From the IMG/VR virus record IMGVR_UViG_2737471857_000022: a DNA stretch of 36,183 bases. One strand, written 5' to 3'. This document shows positions 1-35,193 of the stretch, in pieces (positions within the stretch are counted from its first letter, which is position 1; the number at the start of each line of letters is the position of its first letter). A model generated the notes under the pieces. The model saw nothing but the letters and a program-made list of their open reading frames with translations. It was not told the DNA's origin and searched no databases. A program made the position numbers and the translations under genes. This DNA is from a virus (taxonomy: Duplodnaviria > Heunggongvirae > Uroviricota > Caudoviricetes).

Positions 1-351
1 ATGCGAGGGACAGTCGAAATTATGCGTTATCCCGTCACTCTTACACCCGCGCCGGAAGGCGGTTATATGGTTTCTTTTGTGGATATCCCTGAAGCGTTGA
101 CGCAGGGCGAAACTGTCGCTGAAGCGATGGAAGCGGCAAAAGATGCTTTACTGACCGCATTTGATTTTTATTTTGAAGATAACGAGCTTATCCCTTTACC
201 TTCGCCATTAAATAGTCATGATCACTTTATTGAAGTGCCTTTGAGCGTCGCCTCTAAGGTATTGCTGTTAAATGCTTTTTTACAGTCAGAAATCACTCAG
301 CAAGAGTTAGCCAGGCGAATTGGCAAACCTAAATGTTGTAAACCCCAATAA
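1..351 (+). pseudogene. hicB: hicB-type antitoxin gene, 3'-truncated: HicB-like sequence for ~111 codons, then 5 foreign codons (CCKPQ) and stop
   Basis: ORF 1..351. Residues 8-111 (MRYPVTLTPAPEGGYMVSFVDIPEAL...ELARRIGKPK) match my recollection of enterobacterial HicB (N-terminal domain plus start of the C-terminal HTH). The frame diverges at nt 334 and stops at 349-351. Everything downstream is phage-like. Confidence 0.55.
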
Positions 352-372
352 CTAAAATTTTTGCAATAAAAA

Positions 373-395
373 AGCCCCATCACAAGGACAGGGCT
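373..395 (-). terminator. weak hairpin plus T-run downstream of the minus-strand ORF 415..720
   Basis: AGCCC/GGGCT stem (373-377 with 391-395); A-run 367-373 on + strand is a T-run on the minus strand. Confidence 0.3.
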
Positions 396-414
396 ATAGA
401 ATCAATCACTTACA

Positions 415-720
415 TCACTTAATATCTTTCATTTTACGGATACGCGCGCTTGCTTCCGGTAGTTCATCCAGTGTTACGTGATAAGCAAGCATACAGACAG
501 GAGTCGGATCGAATCCCTCATGAGTATTGATCAGATGGCTATTCCCGCCTTTAAATTCATCCTGTCCATCCCACATAGCGTACACGTCATCTTCTGCTAC
601 ATAGATAATCAATCCAATAGGGGAGTTAGTAAGCTGGAAGATGCAGCCAGTAGAATCAATACGATGTTCCCGAACGTCATCAACAGTTTCAAAGTCAATC
701 TTAATATCTTTAGTCTTCAT
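415..720 (-). CDS. hypothetical protein (101 aa), first gene inside the putative prophage left end
   Basis: Intact ORF; GAGGG Shine-Dalgarno about 6 nt upstream on the minus strand; no family recognised. Confidence 0.55.
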   Translation of the reverse strand: MKTKDIKIDFETVDDVREHRIDSTGCIFQLTNSPIGLIIYVAEDDVYAMWDGQDEFKGGNSHLINTHEGFDPTPVCMLAYHVTLDELPEASARIRKMKDIK

Positions 721-1017
721 GATTTGCCCTCGCGTGAAAATATTTTCGATTATTTATAAAAAAGACTTGACAAAATCAAAAGGTACTGTTCCACGGGTGA
801 AATAAAGGGAGTTTTCGGCACCCCGGTTTTTGATGTGCGTGTGAGATTTCAAAACAGGTGCAGTGCAGCCCACCAGCGCGGTCGCTACGCGACTATTAAC
901 ACCAGCCAATCCCTTTCCATGCCTCGATCTTTCCCTTCGTTATAAAGCGTTTTAGGCGCTCTCCTGAATGCGCAGATCAGATAAATAATTTTACGCAAAT
1001 TTAATGGAGGATAACCA

Positions 1018-1578
1018 ATGAAAGAAGAATTAACCCTTACAGAAATTTCCCGCTTATACGGCTATACAATTAACGCCGCTAAGAAATGGCAAGAACGAGG
1101 AATGCCATTTAACACCAATACACGACGCGTACCGCTCAAGGAAGGGACCGAATGGATAGCAAAAAATATCATCAGTCCACTCAGGGAAACTACTGTCAAA
1201 GAACAAATCGACGTAGAGAAGTTACGCCGCGAGAGAGCATTAGCGGACGCAGCCGAACGAGAGAACCAGGAAGCAATGAATCTCCTGATTCCCGTCGGGT
1301 ATGTGGAGCAGGAGCTAGCGGAATACTGCGGGAAAGTGAAGCAGACTATTTTGCAGATCGCCACAATCGACGCTTTAGAAATTCTCGAATCTGCCACTGA
1401 CCAGAAAACATTGAAGAATAAGCTAAGGGAGATCATCGAGCGTCGTTTAAATGAAGTAGGGGACTTGTTCGAAAATGCAGATTTGGGAGAAGACGAGGAA
1501 GAAGAATTACCATTAATGGATGAACCGGAAGAACAAGAACAAGAACCAGAAGAAGACGATGAATTTGATGTGTCTTAA
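1018..1578 (+). CDS. Nu1-family HTH DNA-binding protein with acidic C-terminal tail; possible small terminase subunit
   Basis: N-terminus LTLTEISRLYGYTINAAKKWQERGMPF plus EKLRRE resembles lambda Nu1 winged HTH (recalled). 186 aa against Nu1 181 aa. GGAGG SD at 1003-1007. Not adjacent to the large terminase gene, so the role is uncertain. Confidence 0.6.
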   Translation: MKEELTLTEISRLYGYTINAAKKWQERGMPFNTNTRRVPLKEGTEWIAKNIISPLRETTVKEQIDVEKLRRERALADAAERENQEAMNLLIPVGYVEQELAEYCGKVKQTILQIATIDALEILESATDQKTLKNKLREIIERRLNEVGDLFENADLGEDEEEELPLMDEPEEQEQEPEEDDEFDVS

Positions 1579-3478: not shown

Positions 3479-3994
3479 CTCGAATCCTCCTACAATGTGG
3501 ATTAATGATTTCTTAAAAAAGAGCGTTAACCGCTCACTATTATTTATATGGGGATTGTATTTTATTTTTCAACCCCTCACATTTATCTCTTATATATGTA
3601 TTTACAACAGAGATATGTTAAAATGTTATTCAGATGTTATCAGGCGTGTTAAATGTGTTAAACCACAGCACGAATTGCTAAAGCGAAGAACACGATTTAA
3701 CCAAATTGATGTATATTCAATCAATTTAGAAAAAGGCATAGCACTTTTTGCTAAAGCGGTGAGCATTAATTGAGCTATGAATTGTAAAGATTTGTTACAA
3801 GATTTTCTCTCAGATCCAAATCTTCACAGACATATAACAATTTAACAGAAGGATAACAATAGGAAGGAAAATCGGTAAATTTTCACTTTCAATACAAATA
3901 TTATGACATATTTATCTCTAATTTTCAAGTATACCACTGTTCCTGCACAGTGTCAACAAAGGACTTTCAAACCTACACTAGCCCTACACTATGA

Positions 3995-4237
3995 AAATTG
4001 CCCCCGAATTTTTGCCCCTGAACCAAAATCCCCTAGATTTCACATCCCATTTTTGCCCCTGAAACCCACTATTTTTGCCCCTGAAATTCTGGGAAACAGT
4101 GATTTTGCCCCTTATTTTTGCCCCTGAAATGCCAATAATTGCCCCTGAAAATCTAATTTTTGCCCCTGAATTTTGCCCCTGAAAAGGATTTGTGAGAAAA
4201 ACTCTTTATAAAACATTAACTTAGTGAGGGGCAAAAC
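3995..4237. repeat. iteron array: at least 6 perfect and 3 degenerate direct copies of TTTTGCCCCTGAA plus one inverted copy
   Basis: Perfect copies start at 4010, 4051, 4073, 4116, 4158 and 4171. Degenerate copies near 3997, 4103 and 4139. Inverted copy GAGGGGCAAAA at 4225-4235. Confidence 0.85.
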
Positions 4238-4239
4238 AG

Positions 4240-4860
4240 GGAATCGGGCGTGCATAGATATTATATAACACATTCGCTACGCTCATGTGTAAAACCAAAA
4301 ACAACAAATAACCAAAAAGATATTAGGAGGGCGTAGCCCGACTGCGCGAAGCGCTAACCAATTACTTCTAGTAACACTAATTTAAACTAGATGATACTAG
4401 ATGGTCTTAGAAGGAATTAACTAGTTTGCTCGCTCGCTTCGCTCACTCTCAAACGTCTGCGACGCCACTGCGTGGCATCGAGAATCACTTCTGAAAGGAT
4501 TTTCTTGAAAGGGATTTTAAACTAGTTACTAACTGATTCTAGAAAGATAGTAATAATCACTTTGAAGATAATAGTAGTTAACTGGTTACTAGATGATTCT
4601 AGATCACTTTAATGATCATGAAAGGTATTGGTTATCCCTTCGGGATTGCAACCTTCGGTTGCTAAATTGCTTCCGGATTATTATTTCTCCAAAAGAAAGA
4701 TTCTTATATTCTAAAGATACTTCTTCGTTTTGATGATGATTTAATCAAAATCTATGAAGGAGGCGAAGCCGACTGAATACCAATTCCTTTCAAATTAGAC
4801 AAAAATTTCTCGTTATAAATAATAGTGTACTTTGTTTGATTCACTTTCTTTTAGAGGATT
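4240..4860. other. about 600 bp non-coding region with clustered ACTAG(A/T)T motifs and tandem UUCG-loop hairpins
   Basis: No ORF of 60 aa or more with an RBS. CTAG-containing motifs at 4366, 4387, 4396, 4420, 4521, 4537, 4588 and 4597. Hairpins at about 4458-4480, 4633-4645 and 4648-4663. Confidence 0.4.
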
Positions 4861-4866
4861 TCCACT

Positions 4867-5319
4867 ATGATCAATACTAAAACTCCTTTCATTCTTCTGG
4901 GTCTGAACCATGATGATAATCTGGCTATGATGCATGTTTTCGCTAATCGTGGTTATAACATCATTCGTCATTCCGAAGACTCCAATTTCTCAACTGCTTT
5001 CTATGCTCTTAAACGTAATGGTCGCCCTACGGTGATCGTAGACTGCTTTACTGATGAAGGTCGTGAACAATACAACAACATTCCGGCAATTATTGTTCGT
5101 GATGACCTGCCGTTTGATGTTCGTGAATATGACGTTGATTTAGGCTCTTACTATGGGATCGCCGATCTTGACCAGATTATGGCTGATTATGGTAAACAAC
5201 CCGCTCAGGAAGCCCCAGAACACGATGAACAAGACGAAGATGACGACGACTACGCACCAATCTGCTTCTCTTCTCAGAATGGCTTCTACGGTTACGATGA
5301 AGGCTTAGATATGCTGTAA
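4867..5319 (+). CDS. hypothetical protein (150 aa) with acidic C-terminal tail
   Basis: ORF with GAGGA SD; codon usage consistent with neighbours; no family recognised. Confidence 0.6.
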   Translation: MINTKTPFILLGLNHDDNLAMMHVFANRGYNIIRHSEDSNFSTAFYALKRNGRPTVIVDCFTDEGREQYNNIPAIIVRDDLPFDVREYDVDLGSYYGIADLDQIMADYGKQPAQEAPEHDEQDEDDDDYAPICFSSQNGFYGYDEGLDML

Positions 5320-7754: not shown

Positions 7755-7841
7755 ACAACCCCCTTAAATCTTAATACCCGTATTTATCAAAATATCAACA
7801 ATTTAATAAATACCTTCATATTTCGTAATGAGGGTAATTAC

Positions 7842-9749
7842 ATGAAACTGATTTCTAATAAGGCCAAATTAAAAAAGATTCTCAGAAATGCAGCCAAATA
7901 TATTACGCCACCGCCTAAACTCCTCCCTTCTGAATGGTGCGAAGCGAATATGGTGCTGGTAGATGGTCCTCAAGCTGGGGATAAAGTTAAATTGCTGTCA
8001 TTCCAGAAAGGCATGATTGATGCTCCTTTCCTTGAGAACAAGAAAAAGTATGTTCTGATGACCAGTGCGCAGATCGGAAAGACTACCATCCTGAACGGTA
8101 TCCTGTTTAACCAGATGGCTAACGATCCATGCAATATGATTATCGGACAATCAACCGCTAAAGAAATGTCTCAATATCTCGCGGGTAAGATCCGACCGTC
8201 CATCGAAGCATGTGATGCATTAAAAGACGTGGTTACAGACAAGAATGATCGCAATGCGGTTAACAACAATAACCAGCTACAGCTAAAAACGAATCACTTC
8301 CTGTACATGGTATCGCTTACCAGTCCATCAACCCTACGTGGTAAGACCGCAAAGGTTGGATTGCTTGACGAAATCGATGCTGCTACAGCCTCAGAAGAAG
8401 GTGATCCGGTGGCGCTGGCTGCTAACCGTTTAACTACCTTTGGCGATGAAGGTCGATTAGTCGTATCCAGTACCCCGACCAGTAAGCTCGGAAGCATTAA
8501 CCAGCAATGGTTATCAAGTGATATGCGTATGTTTTTTGTTCCGTGTCCTCATTGCGGTAGACACCAGGTGATCGAGTGGGAAAACGTACAGTTTGAATGG
8601 CGTAACATCGATGGTAAGAATTTACCCGATCCTGATACCGCTCGTTATATTTGCCCCCATTGTAAGAACGCATGGACAGAAGGGGAACGAATCAGGGCAG
8701 TAGCGCAAGGCGAGTGGAGAGCAACCCGTGAAAGTGAAGTAGCAGGATTCTGGATTAGCCGTCTGTATTCACCTTTCAGCACGATCCGCGCTTGTGTGGT
8801 TGATTTTAGTCATGCGTGGCAATCCTTTGATTTACAATCATTTTATAACACCGTGTTAGGCAAGGTATACGACGATCAGGACACGGCAGTAGAAGCAAAT
8901 GAACTGGAACAACTCAAAACAGATGTTTCTATCGAGAATATCCCTGATGACGTGATTTTCTTGTGTTCAGGAATCGACCAGCAATTGGACCGCGCAGAAT
9001 CTACCATCTTAGGTGTAGCGAAAGATAAGGTTTACATTCTGGATCACCGCAGCTTTTACGATCATAACTGTGAACGATATGAATCACCTGTTTGGGATCG
9101 TCTGGTTAACTTCAAGAAAACCAAATTCTATAACGTTAATGGTGAACGTGTGCCAATGCTCGCCAGCTTCCTTGATACATCGAACGGTCGATTCACTCAA
9201 GCCGGATACCGTATTTGTGGCAAGTGGAAGAACCTACACGCGATCAAAGGTAGTTCATCCGGTAATGCTCCAGTGATTCCGGTTAAACCTACCCGCACAG
9301 GTGGTCATGAATTGCTTATGTTGGGTGTTAACGTTGGGAAATCTGCTGTTCGTGAAATGCTGGTTAGAAACCTGAAAGACAATCCTCACATCGGCTTAGA
9401 AATATCAGAAACCGTTCCTGATGATTATCTCGATCAGCTTTTGAGTGAATCCATCAAGCGTACTACTACTGGCGTGCGTTGGGTGAAAAATCCAGGTAGT
9501 ACCCGAAACGAGGCTCTCGACTGTCTGGTTTATAGCTATGCTGCTTCTCGCTACGTCCTTTCAAAAATGTCATGGGATAAACTCATTGCAATGAAAGACA
9601 GCTTAAACCGTGTTGTCGAAGAACCCGTAAAAGCTCCTGAAACGCAATCTGACGAGCAAATCGAAGAAACTAAGCCAATCACACGACCACAACGTCAAAA
9701 CATCGCCAGACGTCCAAATAGAGGCCGTAGTTGGGTAACATCGTTCTAA
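7842..9749 (+). CDS. terminase large subunit, lambda GpA-like (635 aa)
   Basis: P-loop TSAQIGKT near residue 75, two Cys-x2-Cys pairs ([16 protein letters not shown]); size and position ahead of portal. Confidence 0.85.
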
Positions 9750-11880: not shown

Positions 11881-13884
11881 ATGCTTAAATTTCGCCGCGA
11901 TCTTAACGGTTACGGTGGAGTTATTAACGAAGGGCATAACGATCAATACGAATTTGAAATTGCTTTCTCAAGTACACAGCCTTATCAGCGCCAATTTTGG
12001 GATGAGCAAAATCAAGAAATGGTGGTATTAGATGAAATTCTGGTACATACACCGGAAGCGGTTGATCTGTCTCGTCTGAATAATAACGCTCCGTTGCTGT
12101 TCAATCATAATTTCGATAATCACATTGGTGTAGTCTGCGACGCTCGAATCGATGCGGATAACGTAGGCCGTGCTCTGGTTAAATTCTCTAAGCATGGCAC
12201 TTTGGCTAATGATATTCGCAATAAAGTCATTGAAGGTACGATGGAAAAAATTTCTGTCGGTTATGACATTAAAGAATATCACATCGACTACACCAAAGGG
12301 CAATTGATTGTTACTAAGTGGGCGCCTTTTGAAATTTCATTTGTGACGGTTCCCGCAGACGATTCGGTCGGTTTAAATCGCTCTCTAAATACTATCACAG
12401 TTAATTTGGGGGCTAAACGCGATATGACTAAAGAACAAATCGAAGAAATCAAAGAAGAACAAGAACCCGCTCAGGTTGAAGAAACTCCGGTAGAAGAAAA
12501 TAAAGAACCGAAAGTTGAAGAAACTCAAGAGCGCCAAGTTGAAGAGAATAAAGAAGATGAAAATCTCGAAGACGGAAAAGACGCTAAACATCCTGAAAGT
12601 GTTGATGATGATAGTTCAACTGTTCGGGAAACAGAAGAAGTAAAAGAAGAACGTGAAGCCGCTCCGGTTGAAGAAGAAAAAACCGAAGAAGTGGCTGAAC
12701 GTTCCGAAGAAGACGAAGAAGAAATCCGAGCAATCGCGCGGGAACTAAATATTGACGACGAAGAATTGAAACGCGCATTGGCAATTAAAGACATGACGCC
12801 GGAAGCATTCCGCACTAAGGCACTAAATAATCTCGTCAATGCTCAACGTAATAACGAACAAATTAAGGACTCTAAAATGGAAAAAACTTTTGACCTGAAC
12901 AACGTAATTCGCTCTCTGGTAGATGGTGAAGCTCTGGGTGCTAACGAAGCCGAGTTTTCTGCAATGGCTGCTACTGCAACTATGCAGCGTGGTCGTGCTG
13001 CTCGCGGTGGCTCTGTATTCGTTCCGACTGCTGCTATGCGTGCTGCTGCTGATGGTAACACCAAAGCTACTCTGACCGCTGTAACCGACGAAAAACTGCT
13101 GAATGATTCCTATGTAGCGATGCTGTTGCCGGAATCCGTTCTGGGTCGTCTTGGTGTGAAAGTCCTGTCTGGTCTGACTTCGCCGACCGCTATTCCTAAA
13201 ATGACCGCTTCCAGCGTTGAATCTTTCGGCTTCGTTGATGAAAACGGTGCTGCGCCGGAAGGTAAAGCTGAATTTGCAAACGTGAAAATGGCTCCTAAGA
13301 CGTTTGCTGGTGGGAATCCGATCAGCAGAGCTAGCCTCAAGACCGTACCCGGCATCGCTACCCTGATCACTGATCACATTAACCAGGCTGTTCGCATCAA
13401 ACTGGAACAACTGATTCTGTCCGACAAAGAAAATGCTCGTGGTCCGGCTGGTGTGATTAAACAACTGGTAGATGCTGGTCGCGTAGAGAAGAAAGCTGCT
13501 TTCTCTTATAAAGACTTCCTGAAAGAAATTGCTAAACTGACCGACGCTGGCGTTCCTGCTCAGGCGATCAAGTTTGCAATGAGCGGTGCAACTGCTGCTG
13601 AACTGGAATCTACCCTGAAAGATAACGGTGTTTCCGGTTATATCATCGAAAACGGTAAACTGGCTGGTTACGACGTAGTTACTTCTGGTGTTATTCCGGT
13701 AGACCACATCGTTCTGGGATCGTTCGACGCTATTACCATCGGTGAATGGGGTGGTCTGGAACTTGACATTGATGACACTACCTACCGCGCACAGTCTGCT
13801 ATCGTTCCGCGTATCTGGGTAGATCTGGATTACGTTGTAACCCAGCCGGAAGCGCTGAAAGTTCTTCACATCTCCGCTGAATGA
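11881..13884 (+). CDS. single polypeptide fusing prohead protease (HK97 gp4-like), acidic scaffold/delta linker and HK97-fold major capsid protein (667 aa)
   Basis: N-terminal 170 aa carry protease-like motifs (LLFNHNFDNHIG, ISVGYDIKEY, EISFVTVPADD). Residues about 180-300 are Glu/Lys-rich low complexity. The C-terminal 340 aa are capsid-like. Confidence 0.8.
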   Translation: MLKFRRDLNGYGGVINEGHNDQYEFEIAFSSTQPYQRQFWDEQNQEMVVLDEILVHTPEAVDLSRLNNNAPLLFNHNFDNHIGVVCDARIDADNVGRALVKFSKHGTLANDIRNKVIEGTMEKISVGYDIKEYHIDYTKGQLIVTKWAPFEISFVTVPADDSVGLNRSLNTITVNLGAKRDMTKEQIEEIKEEQEPAQVEETPVEENKEPKVEETQERQVEENKEDENLEDGKDAKHPESVDDDSSTVRETEEVKEEREAAPVEEEKTEEVAERSEEDEEEIRAIARELNIDDEELKRALAIKDMTPEAFRTKALNNLVNAQRNNEQIKDSKMEKTFDLNNVIRSLVDGEALGANEAEFSAMAATATMQRGRAARGGSVFVPTAAMRAAADGNTKATLTAVTDEKLLNDSYVAMLLPESVLGRLGVKVLSGLTSPTAIPKMTASSVESFGFVDENGAAPEGKAEFANVKMAPKTFAGGNPISRASLKTVPGIATLITDHINQAVRIKLEQLILSDKENARGPAGVIKQLVDAGRVEKKAAFSYKDFLKEIAKLTDAGVPAQAIKFAMSGATAAELESTLKDNGVSGYIIENGKLAGYDVVTSGVIPVDHIVLGSFDAITIGEWGGLELDIDDTTYRAQSAIVPRIWVDLDYVVTQPEALKVLHISAE

Positions 13885-14075: not shown

Positions 14076-14366
14076 ATGTTCAAATTATCAGAATCACAAT
14101 TATCAAGAATGTTTAAGAGTGCTCCTGTATTTTCGGTGGAAGGTGGTAAATCAATTCGTGCTTATCATGAAATTACTACTACCGACGAACAAGGGGTAAT
14201 GACAGAAACAGAATTTCTATTTTGTCGTGAGGGAGACTTAAAGCAAGGTGATATTGTCATTGTAGAAAATCAGCGTTTCAAAGTTCAATACGTTAAGCGC
14301 AATGGTGACAATACTTGTGATTGCTTTATCACTTTAGCAGGGGGTACACATGCTCGCTACCGTTAA
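14076..14366 (+). CDS. head-tail joining protein, lambda FII-like (96 aa)
   Basis: C-terminal LKQGDIVIVENQRFKVQYVKRNGDNTCDCFITLAG resembles lambda FII (LRRGDTLTIGEENFWVDRVSPDDGGSCHLWLG, recalled). Confidence 0.55.
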   Translation: MFKLSESQLSRMFKSAPVFSVEGGKSIRAYHEITTTDEQGVMTETEFLFCREGDLKQGDIVIVENQRFKVQYVKRNGDNTCDCFITLAGGTHARYR

Positions 14367-14772
14367 TAATATGCCGAGACTGAAAATCAAACGCGCCTTG
14401 CAAGATATTATCGAACAAGATTTAGGTCTGGCTTTAAACGTAGAACAAACTCAGCAAGGCTTTAGTGATGACGTGGTTTGTTGGATTACTGGCATGAATG
14501 AAACTTATACGCGTGTTCGTGGTGGTAATGCAATGCAAGCTGAATGCGTTATCGAAATGCAGTTATATTCTCAGATTCATGAAACGAAAATTCATGAGGG
14601 TATTTGCCAGATAATCCAGATTCAGCCAGATAACCCACGATTTAAAGATTTGGGCTTCTCTATTTCAGATATCACTCCAGTAGCTTCTAATACCGATTAT
14701 GACGATGATTCTAGTGATGGGGGTATCGTTGGGACACTTAGCCTTAAATTTTCTTATCTAGCGCGTTTTTAA
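14350..14772 (+). CDS. tail terminator, lambda gpU-like (140 aa)
   Basis: GGGGG SD; DVVCWITGMNETYT...QAECVIEMQL and C-terminal DYDDDSSDG resemble gpU (recalled). Confidence 0.5.
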   Translation: MLATVNNMPRLKIKRALQDIIEQDLGLALNVEQTQQGFSDDVVCWITGMNETYTRVRGGNAMQAECVIEMQLYSQIHETKIHEGICQIIQIQPDNPRFKDLGFSISDITPVASNTDYDDDSSDGGIVGTLSLKFSYLARF

Positions 14773-15686: not shown

Positions 15687-18600
15687 ATGCAATCAATCCA
15701 ATTTAAACGAACTAATGTTTCTGGCAAAAAACCAACGCCGGAACAATTACAGGTCGGTGAGGTAGCAATCAACCTTAAAGACCATGTTATTTTTACCAAA
15801 GACCGAGATCATGAAGTAGTTCAAATCTCTGTTTCTCCTGAAACTCACGCGGCACTAGAATCTAAAGTTGATGCTAACAAACAAGAACTAGATAGCACAA
15901 TTGCAGTAAATGACCGCAATATTCACGCTAAAGTAGATGAAATTAAACAAACTACTGATGCAACCATCGCAGCAAATCACGCAGAAATTAACAATAAAGT
16001 TGATGTAATTAAACGCGAAACCGACGCGACAATCGAGGCCAATAAAAATAAAGCTGCTTCCGACCTTGCTGGTGTTAAAGCTGAATTGTCGGATACCATC
16101 AACGCTAATAAAAATGCGGCTGCTGTAGCAACTCAGGAACTGGACACCCGCATCAATAAAAAAGTTGATGATATTAAATCCCGCACCGATGCAACCATCG
16201 CAAGCAATGACAAAGCAATCAATGACAAGGTTGATTTGATTAAGGCAGAAACTGACCGCACTATCGCAGCAAATAAAGTCTATGCGGAAAATCAGTTAAC
16301 TGACACCTACAATAACCTTACTGGTGTGATTGCAGCCAATAAGCAAGAGGCAGCGGATAACGTCGCAGCATTAACCCGTGATGTTGAAGCCAAAAATACA
16401 GCAATTCATAGCAAAATTGACAACAACAAGGTTTACACTGATTCTGAATTGGCACGCTTAGAAAGCCGTATTGATGCAGCCGATGGATCTGCTGATGGCA
16501 AGTACATCAAAAAACACGTAAACACTTATACTGATGGTTATTTGCTGTCTAAGACCGCAAACTATTTTGATGATCCAAGTGCGCGTAATCTTGATTACTT
16601 TGGTGCATTCCGTATGAATGACCTAGCGGGTCATATTGCTTTAGCGTTACATGTTCCGCATCCATCCGGCGTTAATCATGCTCGTGGTTTTGAGTTCACT
16701 TATGGGTCTAATCCACATGCTACGGTAAGAACATACGGCTATGATGAATTGGGTCATTTGGCATATTCTCACCGCATGTATCATGAAGGTGATAAACCTA
16801 CTCCGGCTGAAATTGGCGCATATTCGAAAGCAGAAATTGACCGCCTGTTCCAGAAGACGCTTAATTTTGGTATCGAGGGCGGTTGGTTTAAACTAGGCAC
16901 TTTGACAATGCCACAGCAACACGGTCGCACCGCTAAGATCCGTTTGGTTGGTGGTAACGGTTATAACGTCGGGATGAATGGACAAGCCAATATTATCGAA
17001 TTGGTGATTCGATGCGGCAACAATAGCCCGAAAGGTGTTGTATTCAATGCTTATTATAGCATCTGGTATCACGAACAACATTTTTGTGCAATTCCTACCG
17101 ATGGTGATAATTACGATCTTTACGCTTACTATGGTGCACATACAGGATTTGTTTTAGCAGAATATCAAGTTTCTTCCGGTGGTGTTTCTTTAAACCTGTT
17201 GGATACTCCTGAATACCTGGGCGGTGAAAAACCTGTTGCAGATGAAATTTTTGATGCTCTTAACATTTCATCGTTCAATAACTTTAGCAACCGTGGAACG
17301 TTAAATTTTGGCGGAAACCATCAAGGCCAATATGATATTGAGCATTTGAACGAACAACAAACAAATGCTAAAAAGATGTTGCGTCGCTTCCGTAGTTCTG
17401 CTCCTGCCACTATCTGGCATGAAACTGTTGATGATAACGCATATCGTCTTGCTACTGGATACGAAGATACAAATCAGGAATTATTACTGACAGCAACAAC
17501 CGGATTACATATCAAGAAATTAACATTGGATGGCGGTGTTGGTGGAAATTCTGGTATTGATATTCGTCGAGGACCAAATGAAGCAAGCCATTTTAATTTC
17601 ATGGATTATCGCACTGGTCAAGATGTTCGTAATGGCTGGTTTGGTTTTGGTGACGGTCAGACGAAAGATTTTATTTGGTGGAACGATAACGGTCAAAACT
17701 CAATCAACCTGATCGAAAACGGTGAATTGCATATTACTGGTGGTAAAGGCCAGAAAATTGTAATGAATAGCGAAGTTGCATTGTCTGAAAATGCTCGTTT
17801 GGCTGTCAAAGGCGGTAACTATGGTTTGATTTTACGCAATGATGGTTCTGGTTTCCATATTCTTACTACCAATTTAAAAGATTCTTTTGGTAGTTGGAAT
17901 AATCGCAGACCATTCAGTTATGATTTTGCGGACGGTGGATTATATTTAGGTGGTACTGAAACCGCTCGGTGTTTACATCTGGGGATTGATGGTAGCACTC
18001 GTCTTGAAGACAACCTGTTCTTTAAAGCTGGTTCTCGTCAATCTATGGACTATATGGAACTCGTCCATTGGGGGGCAAGCAATACAGGTCGAAATAACGT
18101 TTTAAGTCTTCGTGACTCAAAAGGATTTTTCGCAGAATTTGAAAGATTGGGTGATAATACCATTAAAAACTCCTTCTTTGGTAAACTTAAAATTAATCGC
18201 GGATCTGATGCAATTATCATGAATGCCGAAAGTGGTGATTCTTCTGTATATTTGTTGGGTACGTGTGCTGATAACAATAATTGGTATATCGGTAAAGGCG
18301 GCGCTGATAATGGATTGGCGTTCTATAGTTATGCTACTAATGCTGCTGTAAACATTACAAACGCGGGGGATATCGCTCTAAGTCCAAAAGGCATCGAAAT
18401 GACTCATGTCAATAACGTTCGATTCTATGTTCATGGTGAACGTTGGACTGCTAGCCAATCTGGAGGTTGGAACGACCAGTGGGGATTAGAAGCGCCGATA
18501 TTTGTCGATCATGGTTATGTTTCACCGGACTGTTATTACCCAATTATTAAAGGAAGAAGTTTAATCACCAATCAAGGGTATACAACTGCCGTCGATTTTG

Positions 18601-19097
18601 GTCTGCGTCGTGTTCCTAATGCATGGGGACAAGCAATTATTCGCGTTGGATCTGCGGAGGCATCGCCAGCGGCTGGTCATCCTCAAGCTGTATTCGAGTT
18701 CCATCATGATGGTACTTTTTACTGTCCTGGTAATGGTAACTTTAACGATGTTTATATTCGTTCCGATCGTCGTCTGAAAATTAATGTTGAAGATTACGAA
18801 GAAAATGCGGTGGATAAGGTAAATAAACTCAAAGTTAAAACCTACGATAAAGTTAAATCTCTTAATGACCGAGAAGTTATAGGTCATGAGATTGGTATTA
18901 TCGCACAGGATTTACAAGAGGTATTACCGGAAGCTGTTAAAACCGCAAAAATTGGTGGTTTTGATAACCCAGAAGAAATTTTAACAATTTCAAACTCCGC
19001 AGTGAACGCGCTTTTAATTAAAGCGGTCCAAGAAATGAGCGAAGAAAATAAACTTCTTCGTGAACGTCTTGCTGCAATTGAAGCTAAATTAGGGTAA
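15687..19097 (+). CDS. side (L-shaped-type) tail fibre with C-terminal intramolecular chaperone domain, T5 pb1-like (1136 aa)
   Basis: Four about 22-aa repeats (xIxxKVDxIKxxTDATIxAN) at aa 77-200. C-terminal 110 aa (YIRS/DRRLK...GIIAQDLQEVLPEAVK...NSAVNALLIKAV) resemble the S74-type chaperone of T5 pb1 and endosialidases (recalled). Confidence 0.85.
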   Translation: MQSIQFKRTNVSGKKPTPEQLQVGEVAINLKDHVIFTKDRDHEVVQISVSPETHAALESKVDANKQELDSTIAVNDRNIHAKVDEIKQTTDATIAANHAEINNKVDVIKRETDATIEANKNKAASDLAGVKAELSDTINANKNAAAVATQELDTRINKKVDDIKSRTDATIASNDKAINDKVDLIKAETDRTIAANKVYAENQLTDTYNNLTGVIAANKQEAADNVAALTRDVEAKNTAIHSKIDNNKVYTDSELARLESRIDAADGSADGKYIKKHVNTYTDGYLLSKTANYFDDPSARNLDYFGAFRMNDLAGHIALALHVPHPSGVNHARGFEFTYGSNPHATVRTYGYDELGHLAYSHRMYHEGDKPTPAEIGAYSKAEIDRLFQKTLNFGIEGGWFKLGTLTMPQQHGRTAKIRLVGGNGYNVGMNGQANIIELVIRCGNNSPKGVVFNAYYSIWYHEQHFCAIPTDGDNYDLYAYYGAHTGFVLAEYQVSSGGVSLNLLDTPEYLGGEKPVADEIFDALNISSFNNFSNRGTLNFGGNHQGQYDIEHLNEQQTNAKKMLRRFRSSAPATIWHETVDDNAYRLATGYEDTNQELLLTATTGLHIKKLTLDGGVGGNSGIDIRRGPNEASHFNFMDYRTGQDVRNGWFGFGDGQTKDFIWWNDNGQNSINLIENGELHITGGKGQKIVMNSEVALSENARLAVKGGNYGLILRNDGSGFHILTTNLKDSFGSWNNRRPFSYDFADGGLYLGGTETARCLHLGIDGSTRLEDNLFFKAGSRQSMDYMELVHWGASNTGRNNVLSLRDSKGFFAEFERLGDNTIKNSFFGKLKINRGSDAIIMNAESGDSSVYLLGTCADNNNWYIGKGGADNGLAFYSYATNAAVNITNAGDIALSPKGIEMTHVNNVRFYVHGERWTASQSGGWNDQWGLEAPIFVDHGYVSPDCYYPIIKGRSLITNQGYTTAVDFGLRRVPNAWGQAIIRVGSAEASPAAGHPQAVFEFHHDGTFYCPGNGNFNDVYIRSDRRLKINVEDYEENAVDKVNKLKVKTYDKVKSLNDREVIGHEIGIIAQDLQEVLPEAVKTAKIGGFDNPEEILTISNSAVNALLIKAVQEMSEENKLLRERLAAIEAKLG

Positions 19098-33494: not shown

Positions 33495-35174
33495 TTAAAT
33501 TCCAAATTCCTGTAATGGACCTGATATTTCCTCTTCTGGTTTCCAGTTCTTATCTGTCAGCATGTCTAAACATGGATGCAAAACAAGCCCGTTACTTTCC
33601 AGAATCTGTCTATCATTGATAGTTTTCAAATCAACGAAGATCCGGCCTTTCCTCGGTCCTCTTGAATTTTCTATTACAACTCTCTGGGTCTTGCCATCGA
33701 TGTATTCCAGTACAAACAAGTTTTTGTACTTGTCAATCCTGCTACACCCGATCCGTTTTAGAGCTTGCTTAATCTTAAACCGGACCTTAATGCGATCCTC
33801 GTTGTAAACATCTTCTAAATCAAATTCTGCGAGCTTCTCCCAGCCTTGAGAGTCAACAGAATACATTTCCTCTTCTGCCATCTTGATCTGATTGTAGAGT
33901 GTTTCACGCTCGCTATTGAGGGTAGTAATCTGATCGGCTAGTTCCTTCGTTGCTCCTGTCATAGCAGAAAGGGCAATCAGGTTATCAATCTTGCGTGATA
34001 TCTCATCAACCTGTACTTTCAACGCCGGAACCGGATTAGCCTTATCCTCAGCAATCCAGATTTTATCAGCCAGCAATTGCAATACAGCTTTCTCTAATTG
34101 ATCACCTCGAAAACTCCAGTTTGTATGCACACATGCAATACGACTAGAGCGCATTGCATCGCATGAATAACGATATTGGTTAGGACGTTTGTTAGTTCCT
34201 TTCACCTTAACCATAGCGGAACCGCAATGTTCACATTTCAATAGACCAACACCACTAAGCAAGGGAATAGGTTTAACTTCTTCCTTGTCTCCATAGTTAC
34301 ATGCTCTAACACCAATGCTTTTCTTAAGGTGATAAAACTCAGCGTCATCTAGCACACGAGGATAATAATCCTTTAACTCATACTTAACGCCATCTACAGA
34401 GATTTCCTTGATACCAATCAAAGCGCGGGTATGGAACAACCTTTCAATCATTGCCCGTGACCAGTTTGAATGCCTCTTGTGACTTGCGGCTGGTGGTGGT
34501 GTGTATGTCGCGTTAAGGTGATCCAGTATCTCGGCGGTTGACCGTCCATTCCTGCGTAATTCCACAACTTCCTGAACAATAGGGAAGAAGACCGGATGAG
34601 GAAGCACATAACCAGATGTGGTATCAGTCCACCACATATTCTTTCCAATTTCCTCGATTGCAACAGCCGGATTTTGTGGATTTTCTTGATGAGCTTTAAT
34701 CTTAATCAATGCGCTTGAGTTAGTACGATTGCGCTTAGTCTGACTTTCCTCGTTAGCTCTCGCAAACAACATGACACTCAACAGCAAATCAATAGGATTG
34801 GCATTAACCGATTCCTTGCTATAGACCTTACCATCCATGCCAGTTACGATAGTTATTCCCCTACGGATAATCGAGAGAAATAGCTCTTGTGCTTCAATGA
34901 TGGATTGGCGAGAGATACGGTCTAAGTTTTCCACAACCAGCCAGCTACCAACCGGAACGGATCGACCAATCTCATCCAGAAAGCGAGATAGTGCACCTGT
35001 TCTACTGTTAGCCCCTTTGAATGCAGATACACCAAAATCCTGATAGCTTGTAACTAGCTCAAGATCATATTTTGCGGCTATCTCTGCGGCTGTTCTCTTC
35101 TGGCGTTCATAAGAACTACCATCCGCTTGCTTCATAGACGAGAAGCGAATATACGAATACAGTTTAGTTTTCAT
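33495..35174 (-). CDS. large serine recombinase (phage integrase), about 559 aa from ATG 35174
   Basis: N-terminal resolvase motifs YIRFSSMKQ, SYERQ, LVVENLDRISRQ; zinc ribbon CEHCGSAMV...YSCDAMRSSRIAC; C-terminal coiled coil. Confidence 0.85.
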   Translation of the reverse strand: MKTKLYSYIRFSSMKQADGSSYERQKRTAAEIAAKYDLELVTSYQDFGVSAFKGANSRTGALSRFLDEIGRSVPVGSWLVVENLDRISRQSIIEAQELFLSIIRRGITIVTGMDGKVYSKESVNANPIDLLLSVMLFARANEESQTKRNRTNSSALIKIKAHQENPQNPAVAIEEIGKNMWWTDTTSGYVLPHPVFFPIVQEVVELRRNGRSTAEILDHLNATYTPPPAASHKRHSNWSRAMIERLFHTRALIGIKEISVDGVKYELKDYYPRVLDDAEFYHLKKSIGVRACNYGDKEEVKPIPLLSGVGLLKCEHCGSAMVKVKGTNKRPNQYRYSCDAMRSSRIACVHTNWSFRGDQLEKAVLQLLADKIWIAEDKANPVPALKVQVDEISRKIDNLIALSAMTGATKELADQITTLNSERETLYNQIKMAEEEMYSVDSQGWEKLAEFDLEDVYNEDRIKVRFKIKQALKRIGCSRIDKYKNLFVLEYIDGKTQRVVIENSRGPRKGRIFVDLKTINDRQILESNGLVLHPCLDMLTDKNWKPEEEISGPLQEFGI

Positions 35175-35193
35175 ACCATTTCCAAACAAAAAC

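What the first reader, a model, noticed from the sequence alone, without database searches (positions are those of the whole stretch)
840..1010. GC-rich element with 13-bp palindrome and CTTTCC repeats upstream of the Nu1-like gene: candidate cos-type packaging site
Between 841 and 960 the sequence turns GC-rich. It contains the perfect palindrome GTCGC-TAC-GCGAC (881-893) and two T/C-rich motifs (TCCCTTTCC, TCTTTCCCTTCG) that recall Nu1-binding R elements of lambda cosB. The Nu1-family HTH gene starts 60 nt downstream. That order (cos, then Nu1) is lambda-like, but here the large terminase gene is 6.8 kb away.
Basis: inference. Interest (0 to 1): 0.4.

Follow-up and report, generated by a model that had tools for sequence, protein, structure and literature searches.

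The report
Probable prophage DNA-packaging recognition site
The non-coding DNA just upstream of a lambda-Nu1-like small terminase gene in this E. coli prophage is conserved and is inherited as one unit with that protein's DNA-binding domain, so it is most likely the site where the phage's packaging enzyme recognises its genome, an ordinary kind of element whose DNA ends have not been mapped.

Summary
The window is a ~36 kb serine-integrase prophage inserted in E. coli hicB. The flagged sequence features exist at the stated coordinates but are weak on their own. The 'palindrome' is a 5+3+5 inverted repeat, seen 46 times in the window against ~35 expected. GC is 52% against a 42% mean. The resemblance to lambda R sites is at chance level.

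Comparison with relatives is more informative. The 186-aa ORF is a remote Nu1-type small terminase (TerS), and TerL is a gpA-type cos terminase. The intergenic region contains islands held constant among E. coli lineage-A relatives, including 876-899, which holds the inverted repeat. Across 13-17 relatives, the non-coding stretch ~840-1017 co-segregates with the TerS N-terminal DNA-binding domain (Mantel r 0.76-0.89). The TerS C-terminal domain instead co-segregates with the first ~16-40 residues of TerL, 7 kb away (r 0.70). Natural hybrids (L180-L182) mimic the laboratory lambda-21 and lambda-N15 'cosB + Nu1 5' end' hybrids.

No structured RNA and no canonical promoter were found. No contig ends, lambda-like cohesive-end sequence or IHF site were found either, so the nick site is unassigned.

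Verdict: probably a cos/TerS-recognition region spanning ~762-1017. It is a new member of a known kind and remains unproven. Interest 0.3.

The parts
762..790 (+). Left boundary block, AAGACTTGACA..AGGTACTG. Homology among all family members starts here whatever lies upstream, and it is the block best conserved between specificity lineages. Candidate for the lineage-independent part of cos (cosQ/cosN-like) or for a promoter element. The function is inferred.
   Evidence: Alignments. A-vs-B identity is 75%. It is only weakly coupled to the TerS NTD type (r 0.23). No sigma-70 -10 element lies at the right spacing in any lineage.
840..855 (+). Conserved A/T-rich block TGTGAGATTTCAAAAC (family pattern TGTG..TTTT.AAA). 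Possibly a bend or host-factor site. It marks the left edge of the specificity module.
   Evidence: 94% identity within E. coli lineage A, 62% A vs B. It does not match the IHF consensus.
876..899 (+). GC-rich core island GCGCGGTCGCTACGCGACTATTAA, containing the 5+3+5 inverted repeat at 881-893. Best candidate for the principal TerS site or the nick site (cosN).
   Evidence: 100% identical in E. coli lineage A; the 16-nt GCGGTCGCTACGCGAC is also identical in Salmonella; only 38% identity to lineage B. It tracks the TerS NTD type (r 0.88). GC is 62.5% over 861-900.
910..918 (+). First T/C-rich motif, TCCCTTTCC, in a variable stretch. Probably not critical.
   Evidence: It varies among lineage-A relatives (CCCTTACC in A2). 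L185 combines an A1 recognition helix with A2-type 900-982.
926..942 (+). Conserved block GATCTTTCCCTTCGTTA, which contains the second T/C-rich motif (928-939). Candidate accessory TerS site for lineage A.
   Evidence: 95% identity within E. coli lineage A (block 925-941), 46% against Salmonella and against lineage B. The match to the lambda R consensus is no better than chance.
947..960 (+). Conserved block GCGTTTTAGGCGCT, with a small AGCG/CGCT inverted repeat. Present in lineage A and partly deleted in lineage B.
969..997 (+). Inverted repeat TGCG(C/T)A ... TTACGCA flanking TAAATA (982-987), conserved in all lineages. Candidate operator/promoter of the TerS gene or a proximal TerS site (R1-like).
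   Evidence: The columns are invariant. It is a perfect 9-bp repeat, TTTGCGTAA/TTACGCAAA, in A2-type relatives. It shows no covariation, so there is no evidence for an RNA helix. 983-1003 is 69% identical A vs B.
1006..1010 (+). Shine-Dalgarno sequence GGAGG of the TerS gene.
   Evidence: Read directly from the sequence; conserved.
1018..1248 (+). TerS N-terminal domain (residues 1-77): a Nu1-like winged helix-turn-helix, the DNA-recognition part of the cassette.
   Evidence: It co-segregates with the upstream non-coding DNA (r 0.83). Hybrid breakpoints lie at ~811 and ~1249.
1249..1578 (+). TerS C-terminal part: long helices (oligomerisation) and a disordered acidic tail. Inferred to be the TerL-binding domain.
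   Evidence: AF2 model. It co-segregates with the first 16-40 residues of TerL 7 kb away (r 0.70, p 0.0014) but not with the rest of TerL (r 0.25, not significant).
7842..9749 (+). Large terminase of the gpA family (ATPase plus cos endonuclease). Its N-terminal ~16-40 residues (7842-7961) pair with the TerS C-terminal domain.
   Evidence: Pfam GpA_ATPase 4.7e-56 and GpA_nuclease 2.6e-44. Mosaic analysis.

Best explanation
Window ~762-1017 is the terminase recognition region (cos-type) of a ~36 kb temperate phage integrated in hicB.

Shown:
- The 186-aa protein is a remote Nu1-type TerS.
- TerL is a gpA-type terminase.
- The non-coding stretch ~840-1017 and the TerS N-terminal winged-HTH domain behave as one exchangeable cassette.
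- The TerS C-terminal domain is matched to the extreme N-terminus of TerL.

Inferred mechanism, by analogy with lambda, 21 and N15:
- TerS dimers or oligomers bind lineage-specific sites in ~840-1017. The constant 876-899 island is the prime site, with 926-942 and the 969-997 inverted repeat as accessory sites.
- Bound TerS tethers TerL through the CTD-N-terminus contact.
- TerL nicks nearby to make cohesive ends, and packaging proceeds rightward through TerS, the early region, TerL, and the head, tail and lysis genes to the next cos.

The nick site is not assigned. It is either the GC-rich 876-899 island or the lineage-independent 762-790 block. The same intergenic region must also hold the TerS promoter, because all upstream genes are on the other strand.
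For: (1) TerS identity: phrog_57 'terminase small subunit' E 1.7e-16 over the full length. A profile of the family against PDB ranks lambda-type TerS first (6hn7_B E 2.5e-4, 1j9i E 1.6e-3). hhalign against lambda Nu1 gives 96.3% probability over residues 4-93. The AF2 model's best Foldseek hits are 1j9i (prob 0.97) and 6hn7_B (prob 0.95).

(2) TerL carries both gpA domains. In lambda-type phages this enzyme makes cohesive ends at a cos site upstream of the TerS gene (PMC4669245).

(3) Constraint on the non-coding DNA: islands of 95-100% identity (876-899, 926-942, 983-1017) lie between stretches of 71-77% identity in relatives whose TerS NTD differs by up to ~30%.

(4) Cassette behaviour: L180, L181 and L182 carry a B-like non-coding region and TerS NTD (55-56% identity to the window), yet their TerS CTD is 94-99% identical; L180 and L181 also have a 90-96% identical TerL. 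Breakpoints lie at about window 811 and 1249. Mantel r of the non-coding module against the NTD is 0.83 (p 2e-4). Sub-blocks from 840 to 1017 all give r 0.76-0.89, whereas 762-790 gives 0.23 and NTD against CTD gives 0.31. [quoted passage not shown]

(5) TerS-TerL partnership despite the 7 kb gap: CTD against TerL N40 gives r 0.70 (p 0.0014). L052 and L053 share an identical TerS and 90% identity over the first 40 residues of TerL, but only 47-65% identity in the TerL core.

(6) Position: cargo genes are inserted between att and position ~762 in different relatives, so ~762 is the left limit of an indispensable element.

(7) Rivals tested and weakened: no structured RNA (z +0.83; covariation -0.03 kcal/mol), no Rfam hit, and the non-coding/NTD type is independent of the att site.
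Against: - No physical-end evidence. No public contig starts or ends in the region, and no sequenced virion genome of this family exists.
- No lambda-type cohesive-end sequence, no IHF consensus, and no R-site similarity above chance.
- The non-coding DNA and the NTD are adjacent, so part of their co-segregation may be plain linkage.
- A lineage-A TerL works with a lineage-B core (L180, L181). So if 876-899 is cosN, the nuclease must have little sequence specificity.
- L182 keeps only ~16 N-terminal TerL residues matched to its TerS CTD.
- The region must also hold the TerS promoter, which could account for some of the conservation.
- Pfam Phage_Nu1 is below its threshold (15.2 bits against 30).
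Confidence: 0.55

Rival explanations
1. The region is a regulatory region only. 762-1017 would be the promoter, operator and leader of the TerS gene, perhaps autoregulated by the TerS winged-HTH or controlled by a late activator, and the real cos would lie elsewhere, for instance near TerL.
For: All genes upstream of TerS are on the minus strand, so a promoter must lie here. The invariant TTGACA at 767-772 is a perfect -35 hexamer. The 969-997 inverted repeat flanks a TA...T hexamer ~25 nt upstream of the start codon in every lineage. Autoregulation by the NTD would also produce co-variation between the non-coding DNA and the NTD.
Against: No sigma-70-type promoter with correct spacing is found on the + strand in any of four lineages. 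The most strongly constrained, lineage-specific island (876-899) lies 120-140 nt upstream of the start codon, between the two promoter-like elements. The alternative location upstream of TerL is an 87-bp AT-rich divergent-promoter region with no GC-rich island, and part of it is deleted in lineage B. A promoter role and a cos role are not mutually exclusive.
Confidence: 0.22
2. The region is a pac-type site. TerS would bind here but packaging would be headful, giving permuted, terminally redundant DNA and not cohesive ends.
For: TerS recognition sites near or within the TerS gene also occur in pac phages (PMC4669245). No cohesive-end sequence could be identified. A lineage-A TerL tolerates a different core, which would fit an imprecise first cut.
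Against: TerL has both gpA domains with strong scores, and the closest structural and sequence relatives of TerS are the cos-type lambda Nu1 proteins. In established knowledge, gpA-family terminases are associated with cos packaging.
Confidence: 0.08
3. The 186-aa winged-HTH protein is a recombination directionality factor or excisionase for the serine integrase, and the conserved upstream DNA is its binding or regulatory site next to attL.
For: The gene lies only ~0.35-0.7 kb from attL. Excisionases such as RdfS and other MerR-like wHTH proteins appear among the weaker fold hits.
Against: The non-coding/NTD type is independent of the integration site: A1 and A2 types occur both in hicB and in ycdX. 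The match to a TerS PHROG covers the full length. The CTD co-segregates with the TerL N-terminus. Serine-integrase attP sites are short, and the att core lies at ~341-352, more than 400 nt away.
Confidence: 0.05
4. The region encodes a structured non-coding RNA or a cis-regulatory leader.
For: It is a conserved intergenic region of ~250 nt containing small inverted repeats.
Against: The MFE is no better than shuffles (z +0.83). The RNAalifold covariation term is -0.03 kcal/mol, and the only consistent helix never varies. There is no Rfam match at gathering or at E<=1.
Confidence: 0.03
5. The flagged motifs are chance features of an ordinary intergenic spacer with no specific function.
For: Taken alone, the palindrome, the CTTTCC pair and the R-site similarity are at or near chance frequency.
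Against: Blocks of perfect conservation lie between diverged stretches across dozens of relatives, and the module has sharp boundaries.
Confidence: 0.03

Closest known systems
Bacteriophage lambda cos (cosQ-cosN-cosB) with gpNu1/gpA terminase
   Same: It is a ~200-250 bp non-coding element directly upstream of a Nu1-type TerS gene and downstream of the lysis, accessory and att genes in the circular map. TerS has an N-terminal winged HTH and a C-terminal TerL-binding part. TerL is of the gpA type. The distance from the conserved GC-rich island to the TerS start codon (~120-140 nt) is on the same scale as lambda cosN to Nu1 (~190 nt, from memory).
   Different: There is no lambda-like 12-nt cohesive-end sequence, no R-site consensus above chance and no IHF consensus. 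TerS scores below the Pfam Phage_Nu1 threshold. TerS and TerL are 6.8 kb apart, with the early/immunity/iteron region between them, whereas Nu1 and A are adjacent in lambda. TerS needs its own promoter.
Packaging-specificity hybrids lambda-21hy51 and lambda-N15hy4 (cosB plus 5' end of the TerS gene; Feiss et al. 2015, PMC4669245)
   Same: The natural relatives L180, L181 and L182 carry a swapped ~440-bp segment consisting of the non-coding region plus TerS residues 1-77, on a TerS CTD that is otherwise 94-99% identical (TerL is 90-96% identical in L180 and L181 only). The composition matches that of the engineered hybrids.
   Different: In lambda and 21, cosQ and cosN are identical and only cosB differs. 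Here the most conserved GC-rich island differs between specificity types, so it may be a TerS site and not cosN. The specificity difference itself has not been tested.
N15-type 'simple' cosB (one critical R3 site)
   Same: Within a lineage there is one dominant constant island (876-899), not three obvious repeated R sites, so a simple cosB organisation is plausible.
   Different: There is no sequence similarity. N15 has lambda-like cohesive ends and adjacent terminase genes.
Escherichia phage DCP80 (PQ671644), the only related record in the phage collection
   Same: TerL is 43% identical and a TerS-like protein is 35% identical, and the two genes are also far apart (~22-24 kb). Its TerS-like gene also follows the lysis genes and has a GC-rich island ~190-235 nt upstream of the start codon.
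   Different: It shares no DNA similarity in the non-coding region. The record is 141 kb, is labelled as a T4-like genus and may be chimeric. Its ends are not at the TerS-like gene.

Membership tests
lambda-type cos site (cosQ-cosN-cosB) | Lies immediately upstream of the small-terminase gene of a phage with a gpA-type large terminase | tested here: met
   The conserved non-coding module at 762-1017 abuts TerS (start 1018). TerL has GpA_ATPase and GpA_nuclease domains.
lambda-type cos site (cosQ-cosN-cosB) | Staggered nicks at cosN give unique virion ends with complementary single-stranded overhangs | not testable with these tools
   This needs virion DNA or reads. No contig end falls in the region.
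lambda-type cos site (cosQ-cosN-cosB) | 12-nt cohesive end related to GGGCGGCGACCT (the definition of 'lambda-like' in PMC4669245) | tested here: not met
   With up to 3 mismatches there are 11 matches window-wide against 11.9 expected, and none within 721-1017.
lambda-type cos site (cosQ-cosN-cosB) | cosB contains repeated TerS-binding R sites (complex type: R3, R2, R1) with an IHF site between R3 and R2 | tested here: not met
   A lambda R-like pattern is at chance level (66 against 69 expected). There is no IHF consensus in 721-1017. No repeat family beyond short two-copy matches was found. Family-specific sites of a different sequence are not excluded.
lambda-type cos site (cosQ-cosN-cosB) | The recognition DNA (cosB) co-varies with the TerS recognition domain and can be exchanged together with it | tested here: met
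   Mantel r is 0.83 for the whole module and 0.76-0.89 for every sub-block from 840 to 1017. Natural hybrids L180-L182 have breakpoints at ~811 and ~1249. Physical linkage contributes to this and cannot be fully separated.
Nu1-type small terminase (TerS) | N-terminal winged helix-turn-helix homologous to the gpNu1 DNA-binding domain | tested here: met
   hhalign gives 96.3% probability, E 2e-9. The PDB profile hits are 6hn7_B (2.5e-4) and 1j9i (1.6e-3). The Foldseek top hit is 1j9i with prob 0.97 but E 0.17.
Nu1-type small terminase (TerS) | Scores above the Pfam PF07471 (Phage_Nu1) gathering threshold | tested here: not met
   15.2 bits against a cut-off of 30, E 0.017. It is a member of phrog_57 'terminase small subunit', E 1.7e-16.
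Nu1-type small terminase (TerS) | C-terminal domain binds the N-terminus of the large terminase | tested here: inconclusive
   Binding was not tested. Co-segregation supports it: CTD against TerL N40 gives r 0.70, p 0.0014, whereas CTD against the TerL core gives r 0.25, not significant. L052 and L053 share TerS and the TerL N-terminus but not the TerL core. L182 is a partial exception, with only ~16 residues shared.
Nu1-type small terminase (TerS) | Gene is adjacent to, and co-transcribed with, the large terminase gene | tested here: not met
   6.8 kb and at least 10 ORFs on both strands separate them. The same layout occurs in all E. coli and Salmonella relatives examined.
pac (headful) packaging site | Large terminase belongs to a headful-type family, and virion DNA is permuted and terminally redundant | tested here: not met
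   TerL belongs to the gpA (cos) family. Permutation cannot be tested here.
Structured RNA element | Thermodynamic stability above background and compensatory base changes | tested here: not met
   z is +0.83. The covariation term is -0.03 kcal/mol. There is no Rfam hit.

The most novel reading that the evidence does not exclude
The cos region plus the TerS DNA-binding domain may be a free-standing, self-promoted 'packaging specificity cassette'. It would circulate among these prophages independently of the large terminase, which is encoded 7 kb away. In that reading the constant GC-rich island (876-899 in type A, CAGCAC..AACGAGC in type B) is the actual nick site. One and the same TerL nuclease (90-96% identical in L180 and L181) would then cut two essentially unrelated cosN sequences and produce different cohesive ends, with cleavage position set purely by TerS anchoring.
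Probability: 0.15. Interest if true: 0.55.

Novelty: new member of a known kind. Interest (0 to 1): 0.3.

Why it matters
If confirmed, this locates the packaging site of an uncharacterised family of E. coli and Salmonella prophages. The non-coding module is present in about 1% of complete E. coli genomes (61 of 5,426), and the family has no cultured close relative.

The family also offers a natural experiment on terminase modularity. There are several TerS-NTD/recognition-DNA specificity types. TerS-CTD/TerL-N-terminus pairs stay matched across 7 kb. In L052 and L053, TerL cores were swapped while both termini were kept. These mosaics independently recover the domain map worked out genetically for lambda, 21 and N15. 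They could guide the design of cosmid or transduction tools and the prediction of which satellites or prophages can be co-packaged.

It does not reveal a new mechanism.

Tried and rejected
1. Physical ends from public assemblies. I checked prophage-sized Logan and NCBI contigs, IMG/VR contigs, one metagenome scan (the pattern was too degenerate, and only L063 and L117 were true relatives) and short-contig clusters. Every informative contig end was a host junction (hicB or ycdX) or was internal. None fell in 762-1017.

2. The phage collection has no close relative. DCP80 is distant and possibly chimeric, and it shares no DNA similarity in the non-coding region.

3. A scan of GTDB species-representative genomes with the TerS profile found nothing.

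4. The structured-RNA reading was rejected.

5. Lambda R-site similarity, an IHF site and a lambda cohesive-end sequence are all at chance level or absent.

6. I looked for a canonical sigma-70 promoter using the invariant TTGACA. No -10 element lies at a valid spacing in any lineage, and the strong hits nearby belong to leftward cargo genes.

7. cos upstream of TerL: that 87-bp intergenic region is AT-rich, resembles a divergent promoter and is partly deleted in lineage B.

8. The iteron array at 3997-4184 as the TerS target was rejected. It is shared by relatives with different TerS NTD types (L181, L052) and follows the early-region backbone.

9. Satellites carrying the site without TerS: the non-coding region occurs once per genome in 59 of 61 genomes and always on chromosomes. 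The two genomes with two copies were not examined further.

10. Literature searches for this prophage family found nothing relevant.

Full report
CONTEXT. The window begins with the 5' part of E. coli hicB. Homology to hicB stops at about 333-340. The rest of the window is a ~36 kb prophage that ends just beyond the last base of the window. In strain UTME-9 the 3' hicB fragment follows the homologue of the window's last ORF. A large serine recombinase lies at 33495-35189(-). Related prophages sit either in hicB or in ycdX, with a common att core AACCCC(C)AATAAC at window ~341-352.

The late genes are TerL (7842-9749; Pfam GpA_ATPase 4.7e-56 and GpA_nuclease 2.6e-44), a head-tail joining protein, the portal, a protease-capsid fusion, tail genes and an M15 endolysin. 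There is no close relative in the phage collection.

STEP 1, THE OBSERVATION.
- The 'perfect 13-bp palindrome' is a 5-bp inverted repeat with a 3-nt spacer. The window has 46 perfect 5+3+5 repeats against ~35 expected, though only two have GC-rich arms.
- 841-960 is 51.7% GC against a mean of 41.7%, which places it in the top ~4% of 120-nt windows.
- The two CTTTCC copies (913, 929) are the only close pair on the + strand (10 copies against 6.6 expected).
- A lambda R-like pattern is at chance level, 66 matches against 69 expected.
- There is no IHF consensus in 721-1017 and no lambda-like cohesive-end sequence.

STEP 2, WHAT THE GENE IS. The 186-aa ORF gets no Pfam hit above threshold (Phage_Nu1 scores 15.2 bits against a cut-off of 30). 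Other evidence does identify it.
- It matches phrog_57 'terminase small subunit' over its full length, E 1.7e-16.
- A profile of 17 family members ranks lambda-type TerS first in the PDB (6hn7_B at 2.5e-4, gpNu1 DNA-binding domain 1j9i at 1.6e-3).
- An AF2 model (pLDDT 74) shows a winged HTH, long helices and a disordered acidic tail. Its best Foldseek hits are 1j9i (prob 0.97) and 6hn7_B (prob 0.95), although the E-values are weak because the domain is small.

So 'Nu1-like' holds as remote homology, not as Pfam family membership.

STEP 2, COMPARATIVE ANATOMY OF THE NON-CODING REGION. Relatives came from several sources: IMG/VR (23 loci), 70 protein clusters from E. coli and Salmonella, their contigs, two metagenome contigs and complete E. 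coli genomes (61 of 5,426 carry the region).

Homology among all of them begins abruptly at window ~762 (AAGACTTGACA). Upstream of that point different relatives carry different leftward cargo genes or almost nothing, and in cargo-less relatives the att core lies only ~100 nt upstream.

Identity of the blocks between 762 and 1017:

Block | Within E. coli lineage A | A vs B
762-790 | 80% | 75% (best conserved between lineages)
840-856 | 94% | 62%
876-899 | 100% | 38%
925-941 | 95% | 46%
983-1003 | 95% | 69%

The 16-nt GCGGTCGCTACGCGAC within 876-899 is also identical in Salmonella. The stretches 857-875, 900-924 and 961-982 are variable, at 71-77% within lineage A.

In lineage B the core reads CAGCAC(G/A)C(T/C)C(T/C)A(G/C)AACGAGCTAAA and has no 5+3+5 repeat. 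The T/C-rich motifs are not conserved there either. An inverted repeat TGCG(C/T)A...TTACGCA flanking TAAATA at 969-997 is present in every lineage.

STEP 2, MOSAICS. TerS falls into N-terminal types A1 (this window), A2, Salmonella, B and B'. L180, L181 and L182 combine a B'-type non-coding region and NTD (55-56% identity to the window) with a CTD 94-99% identical to the window. In L180 and L181 the TerL is also 90-96% identical. Breakpoints against the window lie at about 811 and 1249.

Mantel tests across 13 genomes:
- non-coding (-207..-1) against NTD: r 0.83 (p 2e-4)
- NTD against CTD: r 0.31
- CTD against TerL residues 1-40: r 0.70 (p 0.0014)
- CTD against TerL residues 41-540: r 0.25 (not significant)

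Sub-blocks against NTD-coding DNA across 17 sequences:
- 762-790: r 0.23
- 791-839: r 0.53
- 840-875: r 0.76
- 876-899: r 0.88
- 900-941: r 0.85
- 942-982: r 0.89
- 983-1017: r 0.85

The unit that is inherited together is therefore ~840-1248, with sharp edges on both sides.

L052 and L053 have an identical TerS. Their TerL proteins are 90% identical in the first 40 residues and 82-100% in the last ~100, but only 47-65% in the ATPase/nuclease core.

Three exceptions or qualifications were noted. L182 shares only ~16 N-terminal TerL residues with its CTD-matched relatives. L185 carries an A1 helix with A2-type 900-982, so that stretch, which contains the first CTTTCC motif, is not tied to the helix type. 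The non-coding/NTD type is independent of the att site used.

STEP 3, MECHANISM. In lambda, 21 and N15, the N-terminal winged HTH of TerS binds cosB and its C-terminus binds TerL. Anchoring by TerS positions the TerL nuclease on cosN. Specificity resides in cosB plus the recognition helix, and viable hybrids swap 'cosB + 5' end of the TerS gene' (PMC4669245).

The domain boundaries recovered here from natural mosaics coincide with that map. I therefore consider 762-1017 most likely (0.55) to be the terminase recognition region. The lineage-specific part, 840-1017, would act as cosB. Either 876-899 or the lineage-independent 762-790 block would carry the nick site.

A lineage-A TerL coexists with a lineage-B core (L180, L181). 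This argues that 876-899 is primarily a TerS determinant, or else that the nuclease has little sequence specificity once anchored. [quoted passage not shown]

The identities of the proteins, the constraint on the DNA and the co-segregation are shown. Binding, nicking and the direction of packaging are inferred.

RIVALS.
- Promoter/operator only (0.22). A promoter must be here because all upstream genes are leftward. However, no sigma-70 promoter with valid spacing exists in any lineage, and the most strongly constrained island is not at either promoter-like element. This role may well coexist with cos.
- pac-type site (0.08). The gpA-type TerL argues against it.
- RDF/excisionase system (0.05). 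The independence from att, the PHROG assignment and the CTD-TerL coupling argue against it.
- Structured RNA (0.03). z is +0.83, there is no covariation and there is no Rfam hit.
- Chance (0.03). The conservation pattern argues against it.

STEP 4, COMPARISON. The element works like a lambda-type cos/Nu1/gpA system, but it is not a 'lambda-like' cos as that term is defined by cohesive-end sequence, and TerS is below the Pfam Nu1 threshold. The clearest departure is gene order. TerS and its upstream site are separated from TerL by 6-8 kb in every E. coli and Salmonella relative. That interval holds leftward ORFs, a Rha/Ant-like gene, operator-like repeats and a conserved iteron array. The distant phage DCP80 also has the two genes far apart.

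STEP 5-6, NOVELTY AND VERDICT. This is a new member of a known kind: a probable cos/TerS-recognition site of an uncharacterised prophage family. Interest is 0.3. The natural hybrids and the split terminase genes are a tidy illustration of known principles and not a surprise.

Noticed in passing
window 3997-4184 and 4227-4242: There are seven direct copies of ~ATTTTTGCCCCTGAAA, spaced 41, 22, 43, 21, 21 and 13 nt apart, plus one inverted copy. They lie in a ~1.4 kb stretch (3480-4870) that RefSeq annotates without any CDS. It looks like an iteron-type origin or a regulator-binding array. It is conserved (4-8 copies) in many relatives, including Salmonella L052, and does not follow the TerS NTD type.
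   Followed up: partly
window 4385-4411, 4520-4543, 4580-4604: Repeated ACTAGATGAT(A/T)CTAGA-type motifs contain TCTAGA palindromes. They look like operators and may be the immunity or early-control sites of this prophage.
   Followed up: no
window 1-352: The prophage disrupts the antitoxin gene hicB of the hicAB toxin-antitoxin pair, leaving hicA intact upstream in related genomes. Closely related prophages use ycdX instead, with the same att core AACCCC(C)AATAAC. The consequence for HicA toxin control was not examined.
   Followed up: partly
window 360-761 (ORF 415-720, minus strand) and the equivalent slot in L050/L180, L182, L183, L187: There is a variable cargo slot between att and the conserved block at 762. 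This window carries a 101-aa ORF of unknown function followed by a strong terminator-like hairpin (395-373, minus strand). Other relatives carry an LprI-family lysozyme inhibitor, a 398-aa CapR-domain protein, 354-358-aa ORFs, or nothing.
   Followed up: partly
L052 vs L053 (TerL at 16969-18879 and 16860-18767); L182 TerL at 17131-19035: TerL is itself mosaic. In L053 the ATPase/nuclease core is replaced by an allele only ~57% identical, while the first ~40 and last ~100 residues are retained (L052 vs L053). L182 keeps only the first ~16 residues. The retained termini correspond to the TerS-binding and prohead-binding ends known for lambda gpA.
   Followed up: partly
window 11881-13884: The 667-aa 'major capsid protein' appears to be a fusion of a head-maturation protease and the capsid protein (phrog_617, phrog_4523 'major head and protease protein', phrog_80).
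   Followed up: no
window 15687-19097: A 1136-aa protein has a C-terminal region matching T4-type long tail fibre distal subunits (phrog_1699, 5e-126). It is encoded between the head genes and the tail-tube genes, which is an unusual position.
   Followed up: no
window 14537-14627 (minus strand): ARAGORN calls a 91-nt tRNA-Glu(ttc) inside ORF 14350-14772. It is probably a false positive, given its length and position, and Rfam gives no tRNA hit at gathering threshold.
   Followed up: partly
window 7755-7841: The 87-bp AT-rich intergenic region between the leftward 201-aa ORF and TerL is conserved and contains an exact IHF consensus, TATCAACAATTTA (7793-7805). A 19-nt segment overlapping it is deleted in lineage B.
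   Followed up: partly
L003/L004 (PQ671644, Escherichia phage DCP80): This 141-kb record is classified as a T4-like Gaprivervirus. Its first ~26 kb encodes a gpA-type TerL, portal, capsid, tail, endolysin and a Nu1-like TerS related to this prophage family. The record may be chimeric or misclassified.
   Followed up: no
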